From a virus, in IMG/VR virus record IMGVR_UViG_3300019889_000007, positions 1 through 64,000 of that record: a DNA stretch of 64,000 nucleotides; one strand, 5' to 3'. Positions 41,154 to 63,173 of the stretch are shown in pieces (the stretch's first letter is position 1; every line of letters begins with the position of its first letter). The notes beneath the pieces were generated by a model that was not told the origin of the DNA, ran no database searches, and saw only the letters and a program-made list of their open reading frames with translations. The position numbers and the translations under genes are program-made.

Positions 41154-42305
41154 ATGGCTTTTCGCATGACGACGGCAGAGGATGGTCTGCCCGAGTTGCC
41201 CGATCTTGACGTGGGTGGCGGTGAGGTTCTTTCGGGCGAGATCGTTGTCAGCTCGGTCGGGAAGGTGGTTGCTCGACGAAGGGTGTCGGATCGTCCTGAG
41301 CCGCCGAATGCGCTTAAGGCGTTGACGGCGGCGGGGTATGACCTTGTTGTGTCGGGGGTCTCGGCCAACACACTGCGGGCGTATGAGCGGTGTTGGGGTC
41401 AGTTCAATGAGTATCTGGATTCGCGGAAGCTGGGTCGGTTGGATATTGCGCCGACACCGGCGACGGTGATCATTGACTGGATGGCGTTGATGCTTCGTAC
41501 GCCGACCAAGCAAACGAAGATTCCGATGGCGCCATCGTCGGTGTCGCAGATGTTGGCTGCGATCCGGTACAAGCATCGTGAGATTCAAGGTTCGGATAAG
41601 ACGTGGACGGTGCCGCAGTCGTTGTTGCTGACTCAGGCGTATCGGGGGTATTGCCATCAGTGGCTCGATATGGGGCATCGGGTGCAACAGGCGGAACCGA
41701 CGTCGTGGGAGGATCTTGAGGTTTATGCGGCGGGGATTGATACGTCGTCCCCTCGGGGTAAGCGTGATCTTGCGTTGATCTTGTTGTCGTTTTGGATGGC
41801 GGCGCGCGCTTCCGACATCAGTGCTTTGTGGACTTCTCCGGGTGTGGACAACATCCGGTTGAATGCGACAACGATGCAGTTGTTCCTGCCGTATTCCAAG
41901 ACGGACCAGGCGGCTGCCGGGCAGTGGGTGACAATACCGAAGTTTGACAAGAATCCTCCATTGTGTCCTGTCAGATCGGTGCAGGCGTGGCGAGCGGAAC
42001 TGCTGCAAGTTCGGCCCGAGGCCGGTAAATTGTTCGTGGAGATGCCTGCCGGTTTGCGTTCGGACTTCTACGCTAAAGGATTTCCTGGCCTTCAGCCGAT
42101 GGCCGTCAGCGACGTGACGAAACGCTGGGCGAGACGGTTGGGGTTGGGTCAAAGATCGGCGCACTCTCACCGTCGAGGTGCTGCGACGCGGGCTCACGAA
42201 GCTGGGGCGGATATTCCGCAGATCAAAAAGCTCGGTCGTTGGAAATCTTCTGACACGGTCATGAAGTACATCGACGACCAGGCGTTTGAACACCCGTTGG
42301 CTTAG
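41154..42305 (+). CDS. Cre-like tyrosine recombinase
   Basis: SANTLRAY..W..F; RDLALILL..ARASD (R); SKTDQ (K); CPV; SAHSHRRG (HxxR); GRWKS..VMKY (W, Y). Confidence 0.92.
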   Translation: MAFRMTTAEDGLPELPDLDVGGGEVLSGEIVVSSVGKVVARRRVSDRPEPPNALKALTAAGYDLVVSGVSANTLRAYERCWGQFNEYLDSRKLGRLDIAPTPATVIIDWMALMLRTPTKQTKIPMAPSSVSQMLAAIRYKHREIQGSDKTWTVPQSLLLTQAYRGYCHQWLDMGHRVQQAEPTSWEDLEVYAAGIDTSSPRGKRDLALILLSFWMAARASDISALWTSPGVDNIRLNATTMQLFLPYSKTDQAAAGQWVTIPKFDKNPPLCPVRSVQAWRAELLQVRPEAGKLFVEMPAGLRSDFYAKGFPGLQPMAVSDVTKRWARRLGLGQRSAHSHRRGAATRAHEAGADIPQIKKLGRWKSSDTVMKYIDDQAFEHPLA

Positions 42306-46595: not shown

Positions 46596-46921
46596 CGCCA
46601 ACGCGAGCGCAGACAGTTCACCACTGGGCTTTCGACATCGTCATGGCCCAGCCTGACGCAGCATCTGGGCGTACGTGTACTGCCCGATGCTGGCGGTACC
46701 TGAGGGACTGACGATCGTGATCCGGTAGGTGCTGTTCTCCACGCTGCCAGTCGAGTAGATGTCTTTGCGGATTACCCACGGGGGCGTATCGAGGTGGCAC
46801 CCGCATTCCAGGACGTACCCGGTGATGACATCACCGGCCACCGTTTGCAGGCGCGTCGTGGTGGCCTGCGGAAACCAGTGCTGGTTCCCGCAGGCCACAC
46901 ACAACTGGCCACTGGAGCAGG

Positions 46922-48577
46922 TCAGAACGGCCACACGGCGTCCTTACCACTCTCCAGGGCCGGGATCATTCCGAAGGCCGCATCGGAAAGTCCACCGAAA
47001 ACGTACCGGTTGGGCGTATCGGGTAGATGCCCGAACTTGTATCCGCCCAAGTTCCACGTGTAAATCGGGATGTTCGCGGGCACGACGTCGTCGATCTTCT
47101 TCGGGACGTCCATGACGACCCGGCCCATGTGGTCGAAACGTCGCCGCGTCTCGGCCCAGTACCGGCTGGCCACACTCAACGCCTGAGTCCACCCCGGATT
47201 GGTCTGCTCATCGGTGATGATGACGACCCGGTCATGCTTGTCATAGGTCATGACCACCGCCAGCTGCGTATCGGTACCGCCCATGTTGCTGAACTTGCCC
47301 ATCGTGCGCAGCACCGAGTCGCCACGGGTGAACGGGATACGTTGATGGGCCGTGCCGTACTGGTACAGGTCAGCCGCCTCGGCACGCAACGCGATCACCG
47401 ACCCGAACAGGCTGGCTTTCTCGTTCAGACCGAGCTGCTTATGGTTGCCGCCGTAGCCGTACGGGAACATCGAGCTGGACTGGTCCACAAGCACCAGGGT
47501 CCGGCCATCGAAAGCTGGCACGCTCGACACTGACACCGCCAGGGCTTTCTCCAGGTACTCGCCCCATCGCAGCGACCCGACGTTCTTGTGCGCCGAGTAG
47601 AACCGGAACGGCAGCTGCCGGGACCGTTTGATCTGATCGGCGCTGGCCAGGCGGTCCTGCACCTGCCGGATCGCGGCATCGGGGAGTCCGGCCTTGTCGA
47701 AGTTCGCGAGGTTACGGATGAGCGCCATGATCCCCATCGACGGGATCGTGGCTTCCCACATTTTCTTTTGGCTCGCACCGATTTGCCCGGCCATGGAAAT
47801 GGAGTCTTCCCACGTCAATCCGGCGTCTGCCAGTTTCGTCGACAGGGTTTGCACGGTGACGTTGTCGATGCCTTCGGCCAGGATCGCTTTACGGACGGCC
47901 CGGTTGGTCCACACCTGCCCCAGGATGCCCAACGGCACGGGAGTGTCAGGGTTGGACCGGTGCTTGGCAATGTACCGGAACAGGGACGACTGCTCTGCTG
48001 AGGCGGGTTTTGGGTGGACCAACGCGATGACGTCGGCGAACCGGAACGTGTTGTTCCGGGAGTCCCACTTCAAGAAGTTGAACTGCGTGTACAAGCGCCG
48101 GACGGCATCGGCGATACCGCGTTTGATCGGCTGCGGGATCTTGCGGCCGTACTTCGTTGTCCAGTACGCCAGGGCTTCAGCGGGCTCGTCAGCGCGCACT
48201 ATCACCGAATCGATGAGCTTTCGGCCGCCCGGCAGGCCCGCGATCCGCATCGCGTCGGCCGCCTCCACCGCACCCACCAACGACGCCGAACGCATGTTGG
48301 CCTTATTGCGTAGCCACGGTAGGAACCGGGCGATCCACTCCGGGTCCACCACGGCCACGGCCTGAATCAGATGCCGGTACCGGTTGTCACGATGATCGGC
48401 CGCCTCATAGAACGCTTCGGTGGACACCATGTTCGACACGGCCAACAGAAACAGTTCAGATCGGGGGTCCCGCGAATAGGCGGGCGCGTTGTGGAAGTTA
48501 CGGCCGTCGGCGACCGCCGATCCCCTGATCGGTGACTTCTGCCGGACGGCAGCGCTGGCGGTGTTGAACTTACCCAT
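46922..48577 (-). CDS. rsr: Ro60/Rsr TROVE-domain RNA-binding protein with vWA domain
   Basis: SELFLLAVSNMV..FYE, NMRS, RADEPAE, KRGIADAV, MALIRNL, RQLPFRFYSA; vWA MIDAS LVDQSSSM, GGTD, ITDEQ. Confidence 0.95.
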   Translation of the reverse strand: MGKFNTASAAVRQKSPIRGSAVADGRNFHNAPAYSRDPRSELFLLAVSNMVSTEAFYEAADHRDNRYRHLIQAVAVVDPEWIARFLPWLRNKANMRSASLVGAVEAADAMRIAGLPGGRKLIDSVIVRADEPAEALAYWTTKYGRKIPQPIKRGIADAVRRLYTQFNFLKWDSRNNTFRFADVIALVHPKPASAEQSSLFRYIAKHRSNPDTPVPLGILGQVWTNRAVRKAILAEGIDNVTVQTLSTKLADAGLTWEDSISMAGQIGASQKKMWEATIPSMGIMALIRNLANFDKAGLPDAAIRQVQDRLASADQIKRSRQLPFRFYSAHKNVGSLRWGEYLEKALAVSVSSVPAFDGRTLVLVDQSSSMFPYGYGGNHKQLGLNEKASLFGSVIALRAEAADLYQYGTAHQRIPFTRGDSVLRTMGKFSNMGGTDTQLAVVMTYDKHDRVVIITDEQTNPGWTQALSVASRYWAETRRRFDHMGRVVMDVPKKIDDVVPANIPIYTWNLGGYKFGHLPDTPNRYVFGGLSDAAFGMIPALESGKDAVWPF

Positions 48578-48606
48578 CGTGAGTCCTTTGTGGCGTACAC
48601 GGGGAG

Positions 48607-48780
48607 GTGCGGCATGAGCCGTCAGGGATCTGAGAAAAAATTGACCGGAGACACGAACCGCTCTGCCGCTGAGCTAACTGACGCTTACACGAAAGTCTTG
48701 GATTCGAACCAAGGACCTGTCTCTTGAAAGGAGAAGTAGCTCCGGTCGTCGCACCAGTGCCCTGACGGCACAAGCCGCAC
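48607..48780 (-). ncRNA. YrlA-like Y RNA copy 3 (class I tRNA mimic with a UUC anticodon-like loop)
   Basis: Minus strand: closing stems; GGTGCGA..GACCGGAG-CTACTTC; hairpin TCTC-CTTTCAA-GAGA; AGGTC; T arm CTTGG-TTCGAAT-CCAAG; imperfect closed acceptor hairpin; D arm TAGCTCAGCGGCAGAGC; CTCCGGTC-AATTTTTTCT. Confidence 0.85.
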
Positions 48781-48935
48781 ATCCCGAGAAAAAAGTTGCC
48801 GGAGAACACGGTGGCTTTGGCCGCTCGCCCACACCGGCCTGTTACGGACCGGCGGCAGGATTCGAACCTACGAGACCTTTAGGGTCACCCATTTGTCAAG
48901 AATGAAGTAACTCCAGCTATCGCACCGGGATGTGC
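48777..48935 (-). ncRNA. YrlA-like Y RNA copy 2 (class II, Ser-like mimic)
   Basis: Stem GCACATCCCG/CGGGATGTGC; GGTGCGA..AGCTGGAG-TTACTTC; TCATT-CTTGACA-AATGG; variable arm GACC-CTAAA-GGTC; T arm GTAGG-TTCGAAT-CCTGC; acceptor hairpin CGCCGGTC/GGCCGGTG; D arm TGGGCGAGCGGCCAAAGCC. Confidence 0.85.
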
Positions 48936-48994
48936 AACACCGAACACCATACCCACACGGTTACGTCTACGCCACGCATTTGCGTGAAGTGGAT

Positions 48995-49150
48995 GTCGCG
49001 CCCACCGAGAAAAGAGAATCGACCGGAGTTGAGAAACTTGCTAGCGGCCTGCCAATTAACCGACAGTAGACTCGCGAAGGGTCTACCGGCAGGACTCGAA
49101 CCTGCACAACCAACGGAAGTAACCCCAGCCTTCACACCGGCGAACACGAC
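48995..49150 (-). ncRNA. YrlA-like Y RNA copy 1 (Gln-like mimic)
   Basis: Stem GTCGTGTTCGCCG/CGGTGGGCGCGAC; GGTGTGA..GGCTGGGGTT-ACTTC; T arm GCAGG-TTCGAGT-CCTGC; acceptor hairpin CGGTAGAC/GTCTACTG; D arm TCGGTTAATTGGCAGGCC; AACTCCGGTC..TCTTTTCT. Confidence 0.85.
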
Positions 49151-49157
49151 AACACTC

Positions 49158-49186
49158 ATAGTAGCCATGTCGTGTCTGCCTGTCAG
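49158..49186 (-). promoter_or_regulatory. Sigma70/HrdB-type promoter for the Y RNA-Ro60 unit
   Basis: CTGACA-N17-TACTAT on the minus strand; the predicted start falls at about the 5' end of the first Y RNA. Confidence 0.7.
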
Positions 49187-49234
49187 CTAGCGGTCCGTTG
49201 CCACCCCAAGAACCGTTGATACGAAAGAGAACCC

Positions 49235-49752
49235 ATGAAACCTCGTCTGGCCGTGACCATATCGTCCTGACCGCGTTCCTGATCGCCTGTGGCGCACCCA
49301 ACCGCGACGTCAGAAACGAAGGCCCCCAAGCCACCGACCCTGCCGACACCTCCAGTGCCACCACGGCCGCCGCCGATACTGACGCGGCCCTCGGCGAAAC
49401 CCTCAACATCGACGAGGAAGCCCGCGTCACCGTCACCGAAGTCGACACGTCAGTGGAGTCGGACAACCAGTTCGATGAGCCTCGCTACGGTGGCTACGCC
49501 TCCGCCGCCGTCGAAGTCGAAGCACTCGAATCGATGCTGGTCACCGTGACCGACTTTAAACTGATCGCCAAAGACGGCACTGCCTACAAATCCATGCTGT
49601 TCGTATACGGGTTCGACGGAGTGCTCGAACATCAGACCATCAAAGCCGGGCAGAAAGCCTCGGGCCTGGTCATATTCGATGTCGACCCGAAAAACCTCGG
49701 CGACGGCGGCCAAATTGAATACGACGGCTCCGCGTACTGGAGCTTCAAATAA
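49235..49752 (+). pseudogene. DUF4352-like lipoprotein with a frameshifted signal peptide
   Basis: RBS and ATG at 49235 give MKPRLAVT; an extra AT at about 49259 separates it from IVLTAFLIAC; Ig-like body with AGQKASGLVIFDV. Confidence 0.6.
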
Positions 49753-57493: not shown

Positions 57494-58228
57494 ATGTACA
57501 CACGACCAAAACCCTTCATCGTTGCTGGCTTCTCCAGCAAGGCCAACGTCGGTAAAACCAGCTGGATCATCATCATGGCCTGGTACCTCAGCGCCAAATA
57601 CAACGTCCAGGTCCACGACGCCGACCCCGAACACGAGTCACTGACCCGGTGGCTCAACACCATCAAAGAGCTGCCCGGAATGCCGCCCGTGCCATTCGAG
57701 TGGAAAAGCGCCATCGGCGAAAGCCAGATCGAACAGATCCCCGCGACAGCCGAGGCCGCCAAAGCGGACATCGTGTTCGTCGACATCGGTGGAGGTAGAA
57801 GCAAGCTGGCCACGGCCGCCGCTAAGTTCGCTGACCTGATGGTCGTGGTCACCGGCGAATCAGTCCTGGAAAGCATCACCGTCGACGACGCATTCGATGC
57901 CATCGCCCTCGGTGAGAAGAAGCGCACCGACAAGCTGGCCAAGGCGGTTCTGCTGACCAAGACACCACCCAACGCCACCAACATTGTCCGGACGCTCCAG
58001 GACGACTACCTCGAAGCGCAGGAACTGGACAACGTTCCCGAGGAAGACCGCATCGGCGTGTTCGATTACCCGTTCCCCGGCCGCAAGGCATACATGCTCT
58101 TGGGAATGCGCCACCCCGTCGAGGTGGGTATCGACCTGTCCGACGGCACCGACATCAAAACCATCGAGATCGCCAACATGGCCAGGGAGATCGAAGAAGC
58201 CATGGAAATGGAGACGCCCAGTGCGTAA
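57494..58228 (+). CDS. parA: ParA-family partition ATPase (short, type Ib-like)
   Basis: Deviant Walker A SKANVGKTS, DADPE, VFVDIGG, ADLMVV, LLTK. Confidence 0.85.
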   Translation: MYTRPKPFIVAGFSSKANVGKTSWIIIMAWYLSAKYNVQVHDADPEHESLTRWLNTIKELPGMPPVPFEWKSAIGESQIEQIPATAEAAKADIVFVDIGGGRSKLATAAAKFADLMVVVTGESVLESITVDDAFDAIALGEKKRTDKLAKAVLLTKTPPNATNIVRTLQDDYLEAQELDNVPEEDRIGVFDYPFPGRKAYMLLGMRHPVEVGIDLSDGTDIKTIEIANMAREIEEAMEMETPSA

Positions 58229-61982: not shown

Positions 61983-63173
61983 TCACGCTCCTGTCACATC
62001 CGACAGCGTCGACAAACCGACACTGACCGTCTCGGTTCCCCGCGACTGCCACTCCACTTCCAACGTCACCAACCGCATGCCCTGCCTGATCGGGACACAC
62101 AAACCTTCGATGATGTAAACGTCCAACCGGATACCCGGAATCAGGTCCTCCATCGACAACGGCGCCGACGCGGTCAACGTCGCCTGCGACGGCATCCGCA
62201 CAATCGTCGGTGGCGGGTTGCGGTTCCACACCGCGTTCTTGGCCGCGCGCCGCACATCGGCGGCATCAGCGTTGGAATCCTCCATATGCCGCAGCACGTC
62301 AATCCGGCCGTACCGGTAGATCTTCAGCTGAGAATCGGGTTCCTCATCCGGTGACGGCAGGAACGTCTCAGTGATCCCCGGCCAATCCTCATCACCTTCG
62401 GAGTCACCCTCGCGCTGGGTGGTGGCCCAGCCGCGCACACCGGCTTCCAGACCGTTGACCACGACATCGACATCACCGTCGAAGTGTTCGGTCGTCAACC
62501 GGGCCTGTGTCTGGTCCCTGGTGGTGACACGGCGCTGCAACCGCAACGACCGGTTGATGACGGTGAAGTCCAGGGCGTAGGACTGCGCCATCTGTCTCAA
62601 AATCGACCCGAGAGTGTCGACCACGGTGCCGCGCCGGTACCGGGTGATCTCTTCTGACGGGACAACGACGATTTGGTCCATGATCAGGCTGGAGTCGACC
62701 GGGTCGTCGAACGCCGGGTCGAGCAGGTTGATGCTGATCATGTCGTAGGCGATCTCGGTGATCGCGGTGGGAACGTCGAACCACAGGCGGTGAGCATTGA
62801 CGCATTCGTCGAGGCGCTGCACGATGTCGCGGCACACCAGGGTTTTGATCGGGGAGCCGAACGTTTCGATGCGTTGCATCACTTCGCCCTCCCAGACTTG
62901 AATGTTGTCGCGGAAGATCCGGATCTGCGCGACCCGCACCTCGATTTTGTTCCACAGTCGACAGCATTCGGGTGAGGCGTTGACGAAGTCGATTTCGATT
63001 TCGGCTTCGGAGAAGTCCCGCAGGACACGACCCCACCGAAGCCGGTTGACGCCGTCGATGGCTCCGATGTAGAACATTTGTGCGCGGGGGGCCGGGGTGT
63101 CGTCGCCGACAACGCGTTTCATGGCGTGGACTTCGACGGTGTACTGCTCGGCGCATCCCAGAAGCGACGGCAT
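61983..63173 (-). CDS. Minor tail / baseplate hub-like protein
   Basis: LRWGRVLRDFSEAEI, IFRDNIQVWEGEV, LDFTVINR, DLIPGIR. Confidence 0.75.
   Translation of the reverse strand: MPSLLGCAEQYTVEVHAMKRVVGDDTPAPRAQMFYIGAIDGVNRLRWGRVLRDFSEAEIEIDFVNASPECCRLWNKIEVRVAQIRIFRDNIQVWEGEVMQRIETFGSPIKTLVCRDIVQRLDECVNAHRLWFDVPTAITEIAYDMISINLLDPAFDDPVDSSLIMDQIVVVPSEEITRYRRGTVVDTLGSILRQMAQSYALDFTVINRSLRLQRRVTTRDQTQARLTTEHFDGDVDVVVNGLEAGVRGWATTQREGDSEGDEDWPGITETFLPSPDEEPDSQLKIYRYGRIDVLRHMEDSNADAADVRRAAKNAVWNRNPPPTIVRMPSQATLTASAPLSMEDLIPGIRLDVYIIEGLCVPIRQGMRLVTLEVEWQSRGTETVSVGLSTLSDVTGA

What the first reader, a model, noticed from the sequence alone, without database searches (positions are those of the whole stretch)
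46922..49186. Phage Ro60 unit with an array of three Y RNAs, each mimicking a different tRNA type
Seen: one predicted promoter (CTGACA-N17-TACTAT, 49186-49158) precedes three 155-175 nt units and then Ro60. All units share a scaffold: closing stem, GGTG(C/T)GA, a CYGGRG stem, TACTTC, and at the 3' side CTCCGG plus a pyrimidine tract ending TTTTCT. Each carries a different circularly permuted tRNA module in the order anticodon-like hairpin, variable region, T arm, loop-closed acceptor stem, D arm. Copy 1 has U1-A72, C9 and D loop AATTGGCA (Gln-like) with no clear anticodon hairpin. Copy 2 has a long variable arm, D loop GAGCGGCCAAA and loop CT-TGA-CA (Ser-UGA-like). Copy 3 has a class I body with AGGTC and loop CT-TTC-AA (Glu anticodon, one base from Lys UUU). 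Established: Ro60/Rsr binds YrlA RNAs, which are tRNA mimics, and some mycobacteriophages encode the pair. Inference: a constant Ro60 handle with swappable tRNA cassettes could be a modular decoy system. It might sequester host anticodon nucleases or other tRNA-targeting defence toxins, or tether Ro60 to different tRNA-binding enzymes. I cannot tell from the sequence whether such isotype-diverse arrays are already described.
Basis: partly seen in the sequence, partly recalled or inferred. Interest (0 to 1): 0.92.

Follow-up and report, generated by a model that had tools for sequence, protein, structure and literature searches.

The report
Phage Ro60 with three tRNA-like Y RNAs
A soil actinophage carries a Ro60 RNA-binding protein gene preceded by three small Y RNAs, each a rearranged tRNA look-alike on a shared handle; the kind of element is known, but two copies display a complete anticodon arm, which published descriptions say these RNAs lack.

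Summary
Three co-oriented units (49150-48995, 48938-48774, 48769-48618, minus strand) lie between a promoter-like site and a Ro60/TROVE gene (48577-46922). A covariance model built only from units at other viral Ro60 loci hits all three (E 2e-8 to 5e-16). They are actinobacterial-type YrlA Y RNAs: a constant Ro60-binding scaffold plus a circularly permuted tRNA module.

- Unit 1 is the classical form, with no anticodon loop and a Gln-like body.
- Unit 2 is a class II, Ser(UGA)-like module with a long variable arm.
- Unit 3 carries an exact Glu(UUC) anticodon loop on a generic class I body.

The array is not unique. Of 160 related Ro60 loci examined (80 viral, 80 bacterial chromosomal), most hold 2-6 such units. 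About half of the long units carry a hairpin with a 5-bp stem and a 7-nt loop. In 37 of 51 testable cases that loop matches a genuine tRNA anticodon loop at all seven positions.

The papers I could read call this hairpin a "variable" stem-loop and state that YrlA lacks an anticodon loop. The decoy idea is untested, and it is weakened because chromosomal loci share the feature. Verdict: real, a new variant of a known kind, moderately interesting.

The parts
49158..49186 (-). Sigma-70-like promoter (CTGACA-17-TACTAT). The expected transcription start falls about 7 nt downstream, at the first base of unit 1's closing stem.
   Evidence: Consensus scan. It is the only such site upstream of the array. 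Not shown to be active.
48995..49150 (-). Y RNA unit 1 (156 nt), classical YrlA architecture. It has a 13-bp closing stem, GGUGUGA, and the scaffold stem CUGGGG/CUCCGG. An 'anticodon-stem' helix is formed by the 5' and 3' strands, so there is no anticodon loop. T arm 49105-49089; loop-closed 8-bp acceptor stem 49088-49064 (U1-A72); D arm 49061-49046 (loop AAUUGGCA; A15:U48 Levitt pair).
   Evidence: R1 46.6 bits, E 1.8e-8. Rfam YrlA 18.1 bits. MFE fold. Body nearest tRNA-Gln(CUG).
48774..48938 (-). Y RNA unit 2 (165 nt). Same scaffold plus a complete, circularly permuted class II tRNA. Anticodon-arm-like hairpin 48905-48889 (5 bp, loop CUUGACA); long variable arm (GACC-CUAAA-GGUC); T arm 48871-48855; loop-closed 7-8 bp acceptor stem 48854-48832; D arm 48829-48813 (3-bp stem, loop GAGCGGCCAAA).
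   Evidence: R1 62.8 bits, E 4.9e-12. ARAGORN miscalls 48846-48929 as tRNA-Ser(tga). The permuted form is called tRNA-Ser(tga) in 9 of 9 variants. Body nearest Tyr/Ser(UGA). The loop matches the Kitasatospora tRNA-Ser(UGA) loop at 6 of 7 positions (C37 instead of A37).
48618..48769 (-). Y RNA unit 3 (152 nt). Same scaffold plus a permuted class I tRNA. Anticodon-arm-like hairpin 48735-48719 (loop CUUUCAA); 5-nt variable region AGGUC; T arm 48713-48697; imperfect loop-closed acceptor stem (5 of 7 pairs); D arm 48674-48660.
   Evidence: R1 81.2 bits, E 4.7e-16. Rfam YrlA 24.2 bits, E 0.014. The loop is identical to the genuine tRNA-Glu(UUC) loop. Body nearest Val/Thr, with Glu ranked 19th. The permuted form is called tRNA-Glu(ttc) in 6 of 9 variants.
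46922..48577 (-). Ro60/Rsr homologue (551 aa), with a TROVE ring and a vWA domain carrying a DxSxS metal-site motif (D365, S367, S369). It starts 41 nt after unit 3, and no terminator-like site intervenes.
   Evidence: Pfam TROVE 2.6e-15. PDB 9KOP/9L5Y phiLo Ro60, E 4e-28. 2506 homologues at E<=1e-30, the closest 54% identical, mostly actinobacterial. Invariant columns.

Best explanation
The locus is an actinobacterial-type rsr-Y RNA module carried by a temperate soil actinophage, or possibly a phage-plasmid.

One transcript probably starts near 49151 and runs through three Y RNAs into the Ro60 gene. Each Y RNA is set off by its own 10-13 bp closing stem. Each RNA has two parts.

1. A constant handle: closing stem, GGUG(C/U)GA internal loop, CYGGRG/CUCCGG stem and a U-rich 3' strand. 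It corresponds to the Ro60-binding module of YrlA RNAs.
2. A tRNA-shaped head in permuted order (T arm, loop-closed acceptor stem, D arm).

Unit 1 joins handle and head through the anticodon stem, as in published YrlA. Units 2 and 3 join them at the D-arm/anticodon-stem junction, so they also display a whole anticodon stem-loop.

The most likely function is an adaptor. The handle sits on phage Ro60. The tRNA-like head recruits or occupies host proteins that recognise tRNA shape: PNPase as in RYPER complexes, RNase P, the CCA-adding enzyme, modification enzymes. Different heads would then give one Ro60 several partners.

Shown here: the anatomy, family membership, covariation and comparative distribution. 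Inferred: transcription, Ro60 binding and the adaptor role.
For: - Family: the independent clade-specific model hits all three units. The same model gives 192 hits in 80 viral Ro60 loci, every one on the Ro60 strand, and 97 hits at E<=1e-9 in 80 bacterial loci.
- Structure: on 30 units from other loci, 94.9% of cells are paired against 75.4% in shuffles. 26 of 39 pairs show changes on both sides, and the slid controls fall to 41-50% paired.
- Tertiary signature: unit 1 has A15:U48, while units 2 and 3 have G15:C48. This is the same compensatory Levitt-pair pattern reported for YrlA (sequence).
- Published experiments on relatives: M. smegmatis YrlA is bound by Rsr, cut by RNase P and given CCA (PMC4201824). 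Thermus phage phiLo Ro60 binds two upstream phage Y RNA-like molecules and forms a ternary complex with host PNPase (PMC12135203). The S. Typhimurium YrlA head folds like tRNA in a crystal (bioRxiv 10.1101/312249).
- Protein: Ro60 identity is supported.
- Layout: a single promoter-like site and no terminator-like site between the units and the gene.
Against: - No expression or binding data exist for this phage. No RNA sequencing run holding this DNA was listed.
- Rfam's YrlA model stays far below its gathering score.
- The 5' motif is GGUGCGA rather than the published GNCGAA.
- Single-sequence folds are only modestly better than shuffles (z -2.0 to -2.8). They do not recover unit 2's A/U-rich hairpin.
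- Unit 3's acceptor stem has two mismatches.
- The effector bound by any YrlA head is unknown even in model bacteria.
- No PNPase or RNA-repair gene was found near Ro60 in the window.
Confidence: 0.6

Rival explanations
1. Isotype-specific decoys or sensors. The displayed anticodon stem-loops soak up, or report on, tRNA-targeting nucleases (VapC-, PrrC- or colicin-like) or anticodon-loop modification enzymes. They would thereby protect real tRNAs or couple damage to Ro60-directed RNA decay.
For: - 58 of 112 long units have strict tRNA geometry: 5 bp, a 7-nt loop with U33, 5 bp, then a 3-5 nt variable region. Shuffles give a mean of 3.1 and a maximum of 12.
- 37 of 51 loops equal a genuine anticodon loop at all seven positions. 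These include the non-consensus Pro UUUGGGA, Gln UUCUGGU and Arg CUACGGA loops. Shuffling the flanks gives a mean of 24.5 and a maximum of 32 in 5000 trials.
- At least 14 specificities are seen.
- Arrays of three or more long units are more frequent in viral than in bacterial loci: 7 of 58 against 1 of 68, p 0.024.
- Cultured phages place Ro60 inside tRNA gene clusters.
Against: - The same hairpins occur at chromosomal Ro60 loci of Streptomyces, Actinomadura and other genera (55 of 97 units, 32 with exact loops). The feature is therefore not a phage counter-defence invention.
- Unit 1 and about half of all units have no loop at all.
- Unit 2 has C37, which is unusual for a tRNA.
- Exact loops could simply reflect recent descent from, or recombination with, tRNA genes.
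- There is no experimental link between any Y RNA and a tRNase.
Confidence: 0.17
2. Permuted tRNA genes that mature into working tRNAs, either split or re-ligated. RNase P and 3' processing would open the acceptor loop, CCA would be added, and the result would be charged and used in translation.
For: - Permuted units 2 and 3 pass ARAGORN as tRNAs.
- Unit 2 has a 7-8 bp acceptor stem, like M. smegmatis YrlA, which is cut by RNase P and receives CCA in vivo (PMC4201824).
- In unit 2 the body and the anticodon agree (class II, Ser).
Against: - The break at positions 26/27 stays attached to a roughly 60-nt Ro60 handle, and no excision or ligation signals are evident.
- Unit 3's acceptor stem is mismatched and its body is not Glu-like.
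- Body and loop are discordant in most family members.
- Unit 1 and about half of the family lack an anticodon loop.
- No RNA ligase gene was found nearby.
Confidence: 0.05
3. Decayed tRNA genes or chance tRNA-like debris next to Ro60, with no function of their own.
For: - ARAGORN and GenBank annotators call pieces of such units tRNAs.
- Rfam YrlA scores are sub-threshold.
Against: - Strong covariation in all helices.
- Strict strand and position linkage to Ro60 in 160 loci.
- A conserved non-tRNA scaffold.
- Identical sequence in a second soil sample from another study.
Confidence: 0.03

Closest known systems
YrlA Y RNAs of S. Typhimurium and M. smegmatis (Chen et al. 2014, PMC4201824; Rfam RF02553; crystal structure 6CU1, bioRxiv 10.1101/312249)
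   Same: - Encoded beside Ro60 on the same strand.
- The 5' and 3' ends pair into a handle with a G-rich 5' motif, and the YUAY motif is present.
- The order T arm, loop-closed acceptor stem, D arm is the same.
- The conserved tRNA elbow nucleotides and the Levitt-pair covariation are present.
- A 7-bp acceptor stem as in M. smegmatis.
- Unit 1 has exactly this architecture.
   Different: - Units 2 and 3 carry a full stem-loop of 5 bp and 7 nt with a genuine anticodon-loop sequence, where the papers describe a poorly conserved 'V' stem-loop and state that YrlA lacks the anticodon loop.
- Unit 2 has a class II body with a long variable arm.
- The Ro60 motif is GGUGCGA, not GNCGAA.
- Rfam scores are far below the gathering score.
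Thermus phage phiLo Ro60 with Yrl1 and Yrl2 (PMC12135203, 2025; PDB 9KOP, 9L5Y)
   Same: - A phage-encoded Ro60 with several Y RNA-like genes directly upstream.
- It is the closest solved protein relative (E 4e-28).
- It provides experimental precedent for a phage Ro60/Y RNA/host PNPase complex.
   Different: - The phiLo Yrls are described as stem-bulge-stem RNAs with a CGAA motif. No tRNA-like head is reported in the passages I read.
- There are two RNAs, not three.
- Protein identity is only about 27%.
D. radiodurans Yrn1/Rsr/PNPase (the RYPER complex)
   Same: A Y RNA tethers Ro60 to an effector through a tRNA-like distal module. This is the working model adopted here.
   Different: Yrn1 has the opposite arm order, a 6-nt 'anticodon' loop and no clear D arm. 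The papers treat it as a separate lineage.
Circularly permuted tRNA genes of red algae and some archaea (from my own knowledge; also alluded to in bioRxiv 10.1101/312249)
   Same: The 3' half of the tRNA is encoded before the 5' half, and the acceptor ends are joined by a short linker.
   Different: Those genes are processed into functional linear tRNAs. Here the break stays fused to a Ro60 handle, and nothing indicates ligation or decoding.

Membership tests
YrlA-type Y RNA (sensu Chen et al. 2014) | Encoded within a few kb of a Ro60/TROVE gene, on the same strand | tested here: met
   The units end 41-418 nt upstream of the Ro60 start, on the same strand.
YrlA-type Y RNA (sensu Chen et al. 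2014) | T arm, then loop-closed acceptor stem, then D arm, with conserved tRNA elbow nucleotides and a 15:48 pair | tested here: met
   Present in all three units. The helices covary in relatives. Unit 1 has A15:U48; units 2 and 3 have G15:C48.
YrlA-type Y RNA (sensu Chen et al. 2014) | 5' GNCGAAN0-1G motif in a helix formed by the 5' and 3' ends | tested here: inconclusive
   The helix is present. The motif is GGUG(C/U)GA(A/U/C), and GGUGCG(C/A)AG in relatives. It is similar to the published motif at the same place, but not identical.
YrlA-type Y RNA (sensu Chen et al. 2014) | Reaches the Rfam RF02553 gathering score (69 bits) | tested here: not met
   24.2, 18.1 and 14.8 bits. A clade-specific model gives 81.2, 62.8 and 46.6 bits. 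For this reason I file the units as an actinobacterial-type variant, not as Rfam-defined YrlA.
YrlA-type Y RNA (sensu Chen et al. 2014) | Bound by the cognate Ro60 protein | not testable with these tools
   Shown only for relatives (M. smegmatis, S. Typhimurium, phage phiLo).
Ro60 / Rsr (TROVE + vWA) | TROVE domain above the Pfam cut-off and full-length homology to Ro60 proteins | tested here: met
   57 bits against a cut-off of 23. Homologues cover 100% of the length. PDB phiLo Ro60 E 4e-28.
Ro60 / Rsr (TROVE + vWA) | C-terminal vWA domain with a DxSxS metal-site motif | tested here: met
   D365, S367 and S369 are invariant in an 18-sequence alignment.
Canonical tRNA (RF00005) | Cloverleaf in the normal order, scoring above the tRNA gathering score | tested here: not met
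   The only Rfam tRNA hits in the window are the genuine Trp and Cys genes. The ARAGORN Ser(tga) call at 48846-48929 uses the scaffold as its acceptor and D arm.
Canonical tRNA (RF00005) | Recognised as a tRNA after re-permutation, with body and anticodon of one isotype | tested here: inconclusive
   Unit 2: Ser(tga) in 9 of 9 variants, with a class II body. Unit 3: Glu(ttc) in 6 of 9, but a Val/Thr-like body. Unit 1: no loop. tRNAscan-SE isotype models were not available.

The most novel reading that the evidence does not exclude
The so-called V stem-loop of actinobacterial and actinophage YrlA RNAs is an authentic anticodon stem-loop. Ro60 loci would then encode arrays that display different real anticodon loops (at least 14 specificities) on one Ro60 handle. 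These would act as isotype-specific baits, decoys or damage sensors for enzymes that read or cut anticodon loops. Phages would expand such arrays to manipulate or shield the host tRNA pool.
Probability: 0.2. Interest if true: 0.85.

Novelty: new variant of a known kind. Interest (0 to 1): 0.6.

Why it matters
What the tRNA-like head of bacterial Y RNAs binds has been open since 2014. The published view is that the conserved elbow is the interaction site and that no anticodon loop exists.

In this large actinobacterial and actinophage branch, about half of the long units carry a hairpin with exact tRNA geometry. Its seven loop bases track those of real tRNAs of many specificities. This points to anticodon-loop readers (modification enzymes, synthetases, anticodon nucleases) as candidate partners.

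It also gives a direct experimental handle through loop swaps in cultured phages such as Gordonia phages VanLee and Neville, Arthrobacter phage Atuin and Streptomyces phage GiJojo.

The layout also fits the proposed origin of YrlA from dimeric tRNA transcripts.

On the practical side, these units are being annotated as tRNA genes or small ORFs in phage genomes.

Tried and rejected
I therefore could not inspect the contigs of the closest Ro60 relatives (54% identity).
- Near and distant BLAST of the locus against the phage collection gave no match, and a single-protein scan of viral contigs found no relative. Relatives were reached only through a protein alignment.
- Rfam at gathering threshold found no Y RNA.
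- blastn of the three units against all fetched loci found only T-arm-sized matches. No donor tRNA and no orthologous unit could be named.
- I rejected the idea that each module is a faithful copy of one isotype across the family. Top-1 concordance of body and loop is 7 of 55 against 3.5 by chance, p about 0.04.
- Neighbouring ORFs on both strands were screened with PHROGs and Pfam. They include a tyrosine recombinase, HTH/excisionase-like proteins, a ParA-like protein and a PHROG family of unknown function. There is no RNA ligase, kinase/phosphatase, PNPase or CCA enzyme.
- Expression: no RNA holder was listed for this DNA. Laying contigs from two soil studies showed only identical DNA, with one C>A difference inside the Ro60 gene in a low-depth contig.
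- The reviews by Sim and Wolin (2018) and Sim et al. (2020) and the supplementary tables of Chen et al. 2014 are not held. I could not check whether multi-unit arrays or anticodon-like V loops are mentioned there.
It would leave 6 nt between the D stem and that helix and would compete with the conserved scaffold stem. I did not test it by covariation.
Full report
**What is there.** On the minus strand, a sigma-70-like site (CTGACA-17-TACTAT, 49186-49158) is followed by three units. After them comes a 551-aa ORF (48577-46922) that is a Ro60/TROVE protein. Pfam TROVE scores 57 bits against a cut-off of 23. There are 2506 homologues at E<=1e-30, the best only 54% identical and mostly actinobacterial. 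The closest solved structure is Thermus phage phiLo Ro60, E 4e-28. A DxSxS vWA motif is invariant.

The record is an 88.8-kb IMG/VR virus contig. It encodes a helicase, a RecT-like protein, a minor tail protein, a tyrosine recombinase and a ParA-like protein. It is therefore a temperate actinophage or a phage-plasmid from soil.

**The three units.** I place the units at 49150-48995, 48938-48774 and 48769-48618. Each is closed by a 10-13 bp stem.

**Are they more than chance, and what family?** Rfam's YrlA model gives only weak hits of 24.2, 18.1 and 14.8 bits against a gathering score of 69. I therefore collected 80 viral and 80 bacterial loci encoding relatives of the protein. I aligned 30 units from other viral loci and checked the structure by covariation. 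94.9% of cells are paired against 75.4% in shuffles. 26 of 39 pairs change on both sides. Controls with slid partners fall to 41-50% paired.

From this alignment I built model R1, which contains no window sequence. It hits unit 3 at 81.2 bits (E 4.7e-16), unit 2 at 62.8 bits (E 4.9e-12) and unit 1 at 46.6 bits (E 1.8e-8). The next hits in 64 kb are the anticodon-to-T-arm parts of the phage's genuine tRNA-Trp and tRNA-Cys, matched by model positions 27-65 (E 0.003 and 0.08). That side result shows that the hairpin, variable region and T arm of the model are collinear with a real tRNA.

**Anatomy.** All three heads have the YrlA order: T arm, loop-closed acceptor stem, D arm.

- *Unit 1* is the classical form. 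A helix made from the 5' strand (GUUGGU, ACUU) and the 3' strand (GCUAGC, AAGU) takes the place of the anticodon stem and runs on into the handle, so there is no anticodon loop. Its acceptor stem begins U1-A72 and its D loop is AAUUGGCA. Its body is nearest tRNA-Gln(CUG) among the tRNAs of a Kitasatospora genome, scoring 41.5 against 28.5 for the best non-Gln.
- *Units 2 and 3* are joined to the handle one helix earlier, at the D-arm/anticodon-stem junction. They therefore carry an entire hairpin with a 5-bp stem and a 7-nt loop, followed by a variable region and the T arm.
- *Unit 2* has loop CUUGACA, which matches the genuine Ser(UGA) loop at 6 of 7 positions (C37 for A37). It also has a 17-nt variable arm with its own hairpin and a 3-bp D stem with loop GAGCGGCCAAA. 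That D loop is identical to the D loops of the reference tRNA-Ser(CGA) and tRNA-Tyr. Its body is nearest Tyr (42) and Ser(UGA) (41).
- *Unit 3* has loop CUUUCAA, identical to the genuine Glu(UUC) loop. Its body is a Val/Thr-like class I type (Glu ranks 19th), and its acceptor stem has two mismatches.

When the acceptor loop is opened and the D arm is joined to the hairpin in a script, ARAGORN calls unit 2 tRNA-Ser(tga) in 9 of 9 join variants and unit 3 tRNA-Glu(ttc) in 6 of 9. The 15:48 pair covaries inside the window: A:U in unit 1, and G:C in units 2 and 3.

**How special is the array?** It is not special. R1 gives 192 hits in the 80 viral loci, all on the Ro60 strand. Many loci hold 3-6 units, including short scaffold-only units of about 70 nt that resemble YrlB. 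Bacterial chromosomal loci (Streptomyces, Kitasatospora, Actinomadura, Nonomuraea, Micromonospora, Rhodococcus and others) hold one to three long units.

Under strict criteria (E<=1e-9 and at least 120 nt), three or more long units occur in 7 of 58 viral and 1 of 68 bacterial loci (Fisher p 0.024). The window therefore sits in the upper tail, but it is one of many.

Cultured phages show the same layout: Gordonia phages VanLee and Neville, Arthrobacter phage Atuin (three units downstream of Ro60) and Streptomyces phage GiJojo. In those records the units are unannotated, lie under small hypothetical ORFs, or are annotated as tRNA-Arg.

**The hairpin across the family.** Of 112 long viral units, 58 have strict tRNA geometry: a 5-bp stem, a 7-nt loop with U33, a 5-bp stem, then 3-5 nt before the T stem. 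Shuffling the same segments gives a mean of 3.1 and a maximum of 12. The two inner stem pairs covary in 11 and 16 of 30 sequences. I note that those 30 sequences were chosen for having the hairpin.

Loop positions 32, 33, 37 and 38 are conserved (C 42, U 50, A 37 and A 47 of 55), while positions 34-36 vary. Of 51 loops whose triplet exists in the reference genome, 37 match the real anticodon loop at all seven positions. These include the non-consensus Pro (UUUGGGA), Gln (UUCUGGU) and Arg-ACG (CUACGGA) loops. Shuffling the flanks among units gives 24.5 +/- 2.1 and a maximum of 32 in 5000 trials.

At least 14 specificities occur. Bacterial loci show the same pattern: 55 of 97 units have the hairpin and 32 have exact loops, with Lys CUCUUAA and Met CUCAUAA the commonest.

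The body usually does not match the loop's isotype (7 of 55 top-1, against 3.5 by chance). A few units are coherent, for example L005:2151 (Gln), L051:2161 (Glu) and window unit 2.

**What is known.**

- Chen et al. 2014 (PMC4201824) found YrlA next to Ro60 in 254 bacteria and 22 phages. [quoted passage not shown]
- They also showed that M. smegmatis YrlA binds Rsr, is cut by RNase P and receives CCA. Their published 5' probe for that RNA is complementary to a stretch containing a CUUCUAA loop, so the validated RNA has this kind of hairpin.
- The structure paper (bioRxiv 10.1101/312249) states that YrlA lacks the anticodon loop. It cites a model in which YrlA arose from a dimeric tRNA transcript. 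A retained anticodon arm upstream of the T arm is what that model predicts.
- A 2025 paper shows that a Thermus phage Ro60 binds two upstream Y RNA-like molecules and host PNPase (PMC12135203).
- I found no paper in the searchable library that describes anticodon-loop mimicry, class II heads or multi-head arrays in YrlA. Two key reviews and the 2014 supplements could not be read.

**Mechanism.** The best-supported reading is that these are Ro60 adaptor RNAs. The handle binds phage Ro60. The tRNA-shaped heads engage host factors that recognise tRNA, with PNPase tethering as the experimentally grounded precedent.

The exact anticodon loops suggest that loop-reading proteins are among the partners. 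It remains possible, at roughly one in six. It is not specific to phages, because chromosomal loci share the feature. Maturation into working tRNAs and functionless debris are both unlikely, for the reasons given under the rival explanations.

**Limits.**

- There are no expression or binding data.
- The isotype assignment used one reference genome and a simple alignment score, not tRNAscan-SE isotype models.
- E-values from the shortened model calibration are rough.
- Hairpin statistics partly rest on units selected by geometry.
- IMG/VR 'viral' contigs may include prophage-flanking host DNA.

Noticed in passing
L223:1703-1840 (Gordonia phage VanLee); L220:1765-1909 (Streptomyces phage GiJojo); L221:1507-1876 (Gordonia phage Neville): GenBank annotates the 5' halves of Y RNA units as tRNA-Arg(tct) in VanLee and tRNA-Arg(cct) in GiJojo. 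In Neville the units lie under small hypothetical CDSs (gp88-90). ARAGORN makes the same mistake in the window, calling tRNA-Ser(tga) at 48846-48929.
   Followed up: partly
L222:3900-4330 (Arthrobacter phage Atuin): Three Y RNA units lie downstream of the Ro-like gene rather than upstream, inside a large tRNA gene cluster. Several metagenomic viral loci (L007, L034, L076, L080) show the same downstream placement.
   Followed up: no
L055:2023-2164: One unit holds a tRNA-like insert in the normal order (D arm, anticodon arm, T arm) inside the Ro60 handle. This suggests that whole tRNAs can be grafted onto the scaffold.
   Followed up: no
L070:2147-2300: This unit has a class II-type D arm followed by a 7-bp hairpin after the D arm, where an anticodon arm would sit. 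That is a third way of joining head and handle.
   Followed up: no
Viral and bacterial Ro60 loci generally (e.g. L012:2238-2307, L005:2057-2131): Short scaffold-only units of about 70 nt, resembling YrlB, usually head the arrays. The window has none.
   Followed up: partly
Family-wide loop statistics: Loops with U36-A37, the signature of tRNAs that decode ANN codons and receive t6A37, make up 29 of 55 viral hairpins. Pro-type UUUGGGA loops (G37, the m1G site) recur in 5 units.
   Followed up: no
window 41154-42305(+), 57494-58228(+), 61983-63173(-): A tyrosine recombinase, a ParA-like partition protein and a minor tail protein lie in one window. The Ro60 locus sits in this accessory region, convergent with the plus-strand genes that end near 46711.
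   Followed up: partly
window 48939-48994 (-): The 56-nt spacer between units 1 and 2 holds a small inverted repeat (CACGCA..UGCGUG) but no scaffold motif. By contrast, units 2 and 3 are only 4 nt apart.
   Followed up: no
window 46922-49250: Contigs from a second soil sample in a different study carry the same Y RNA region with no differences. The phage is therefore not a one-off assembly product.
   Followed up: yes
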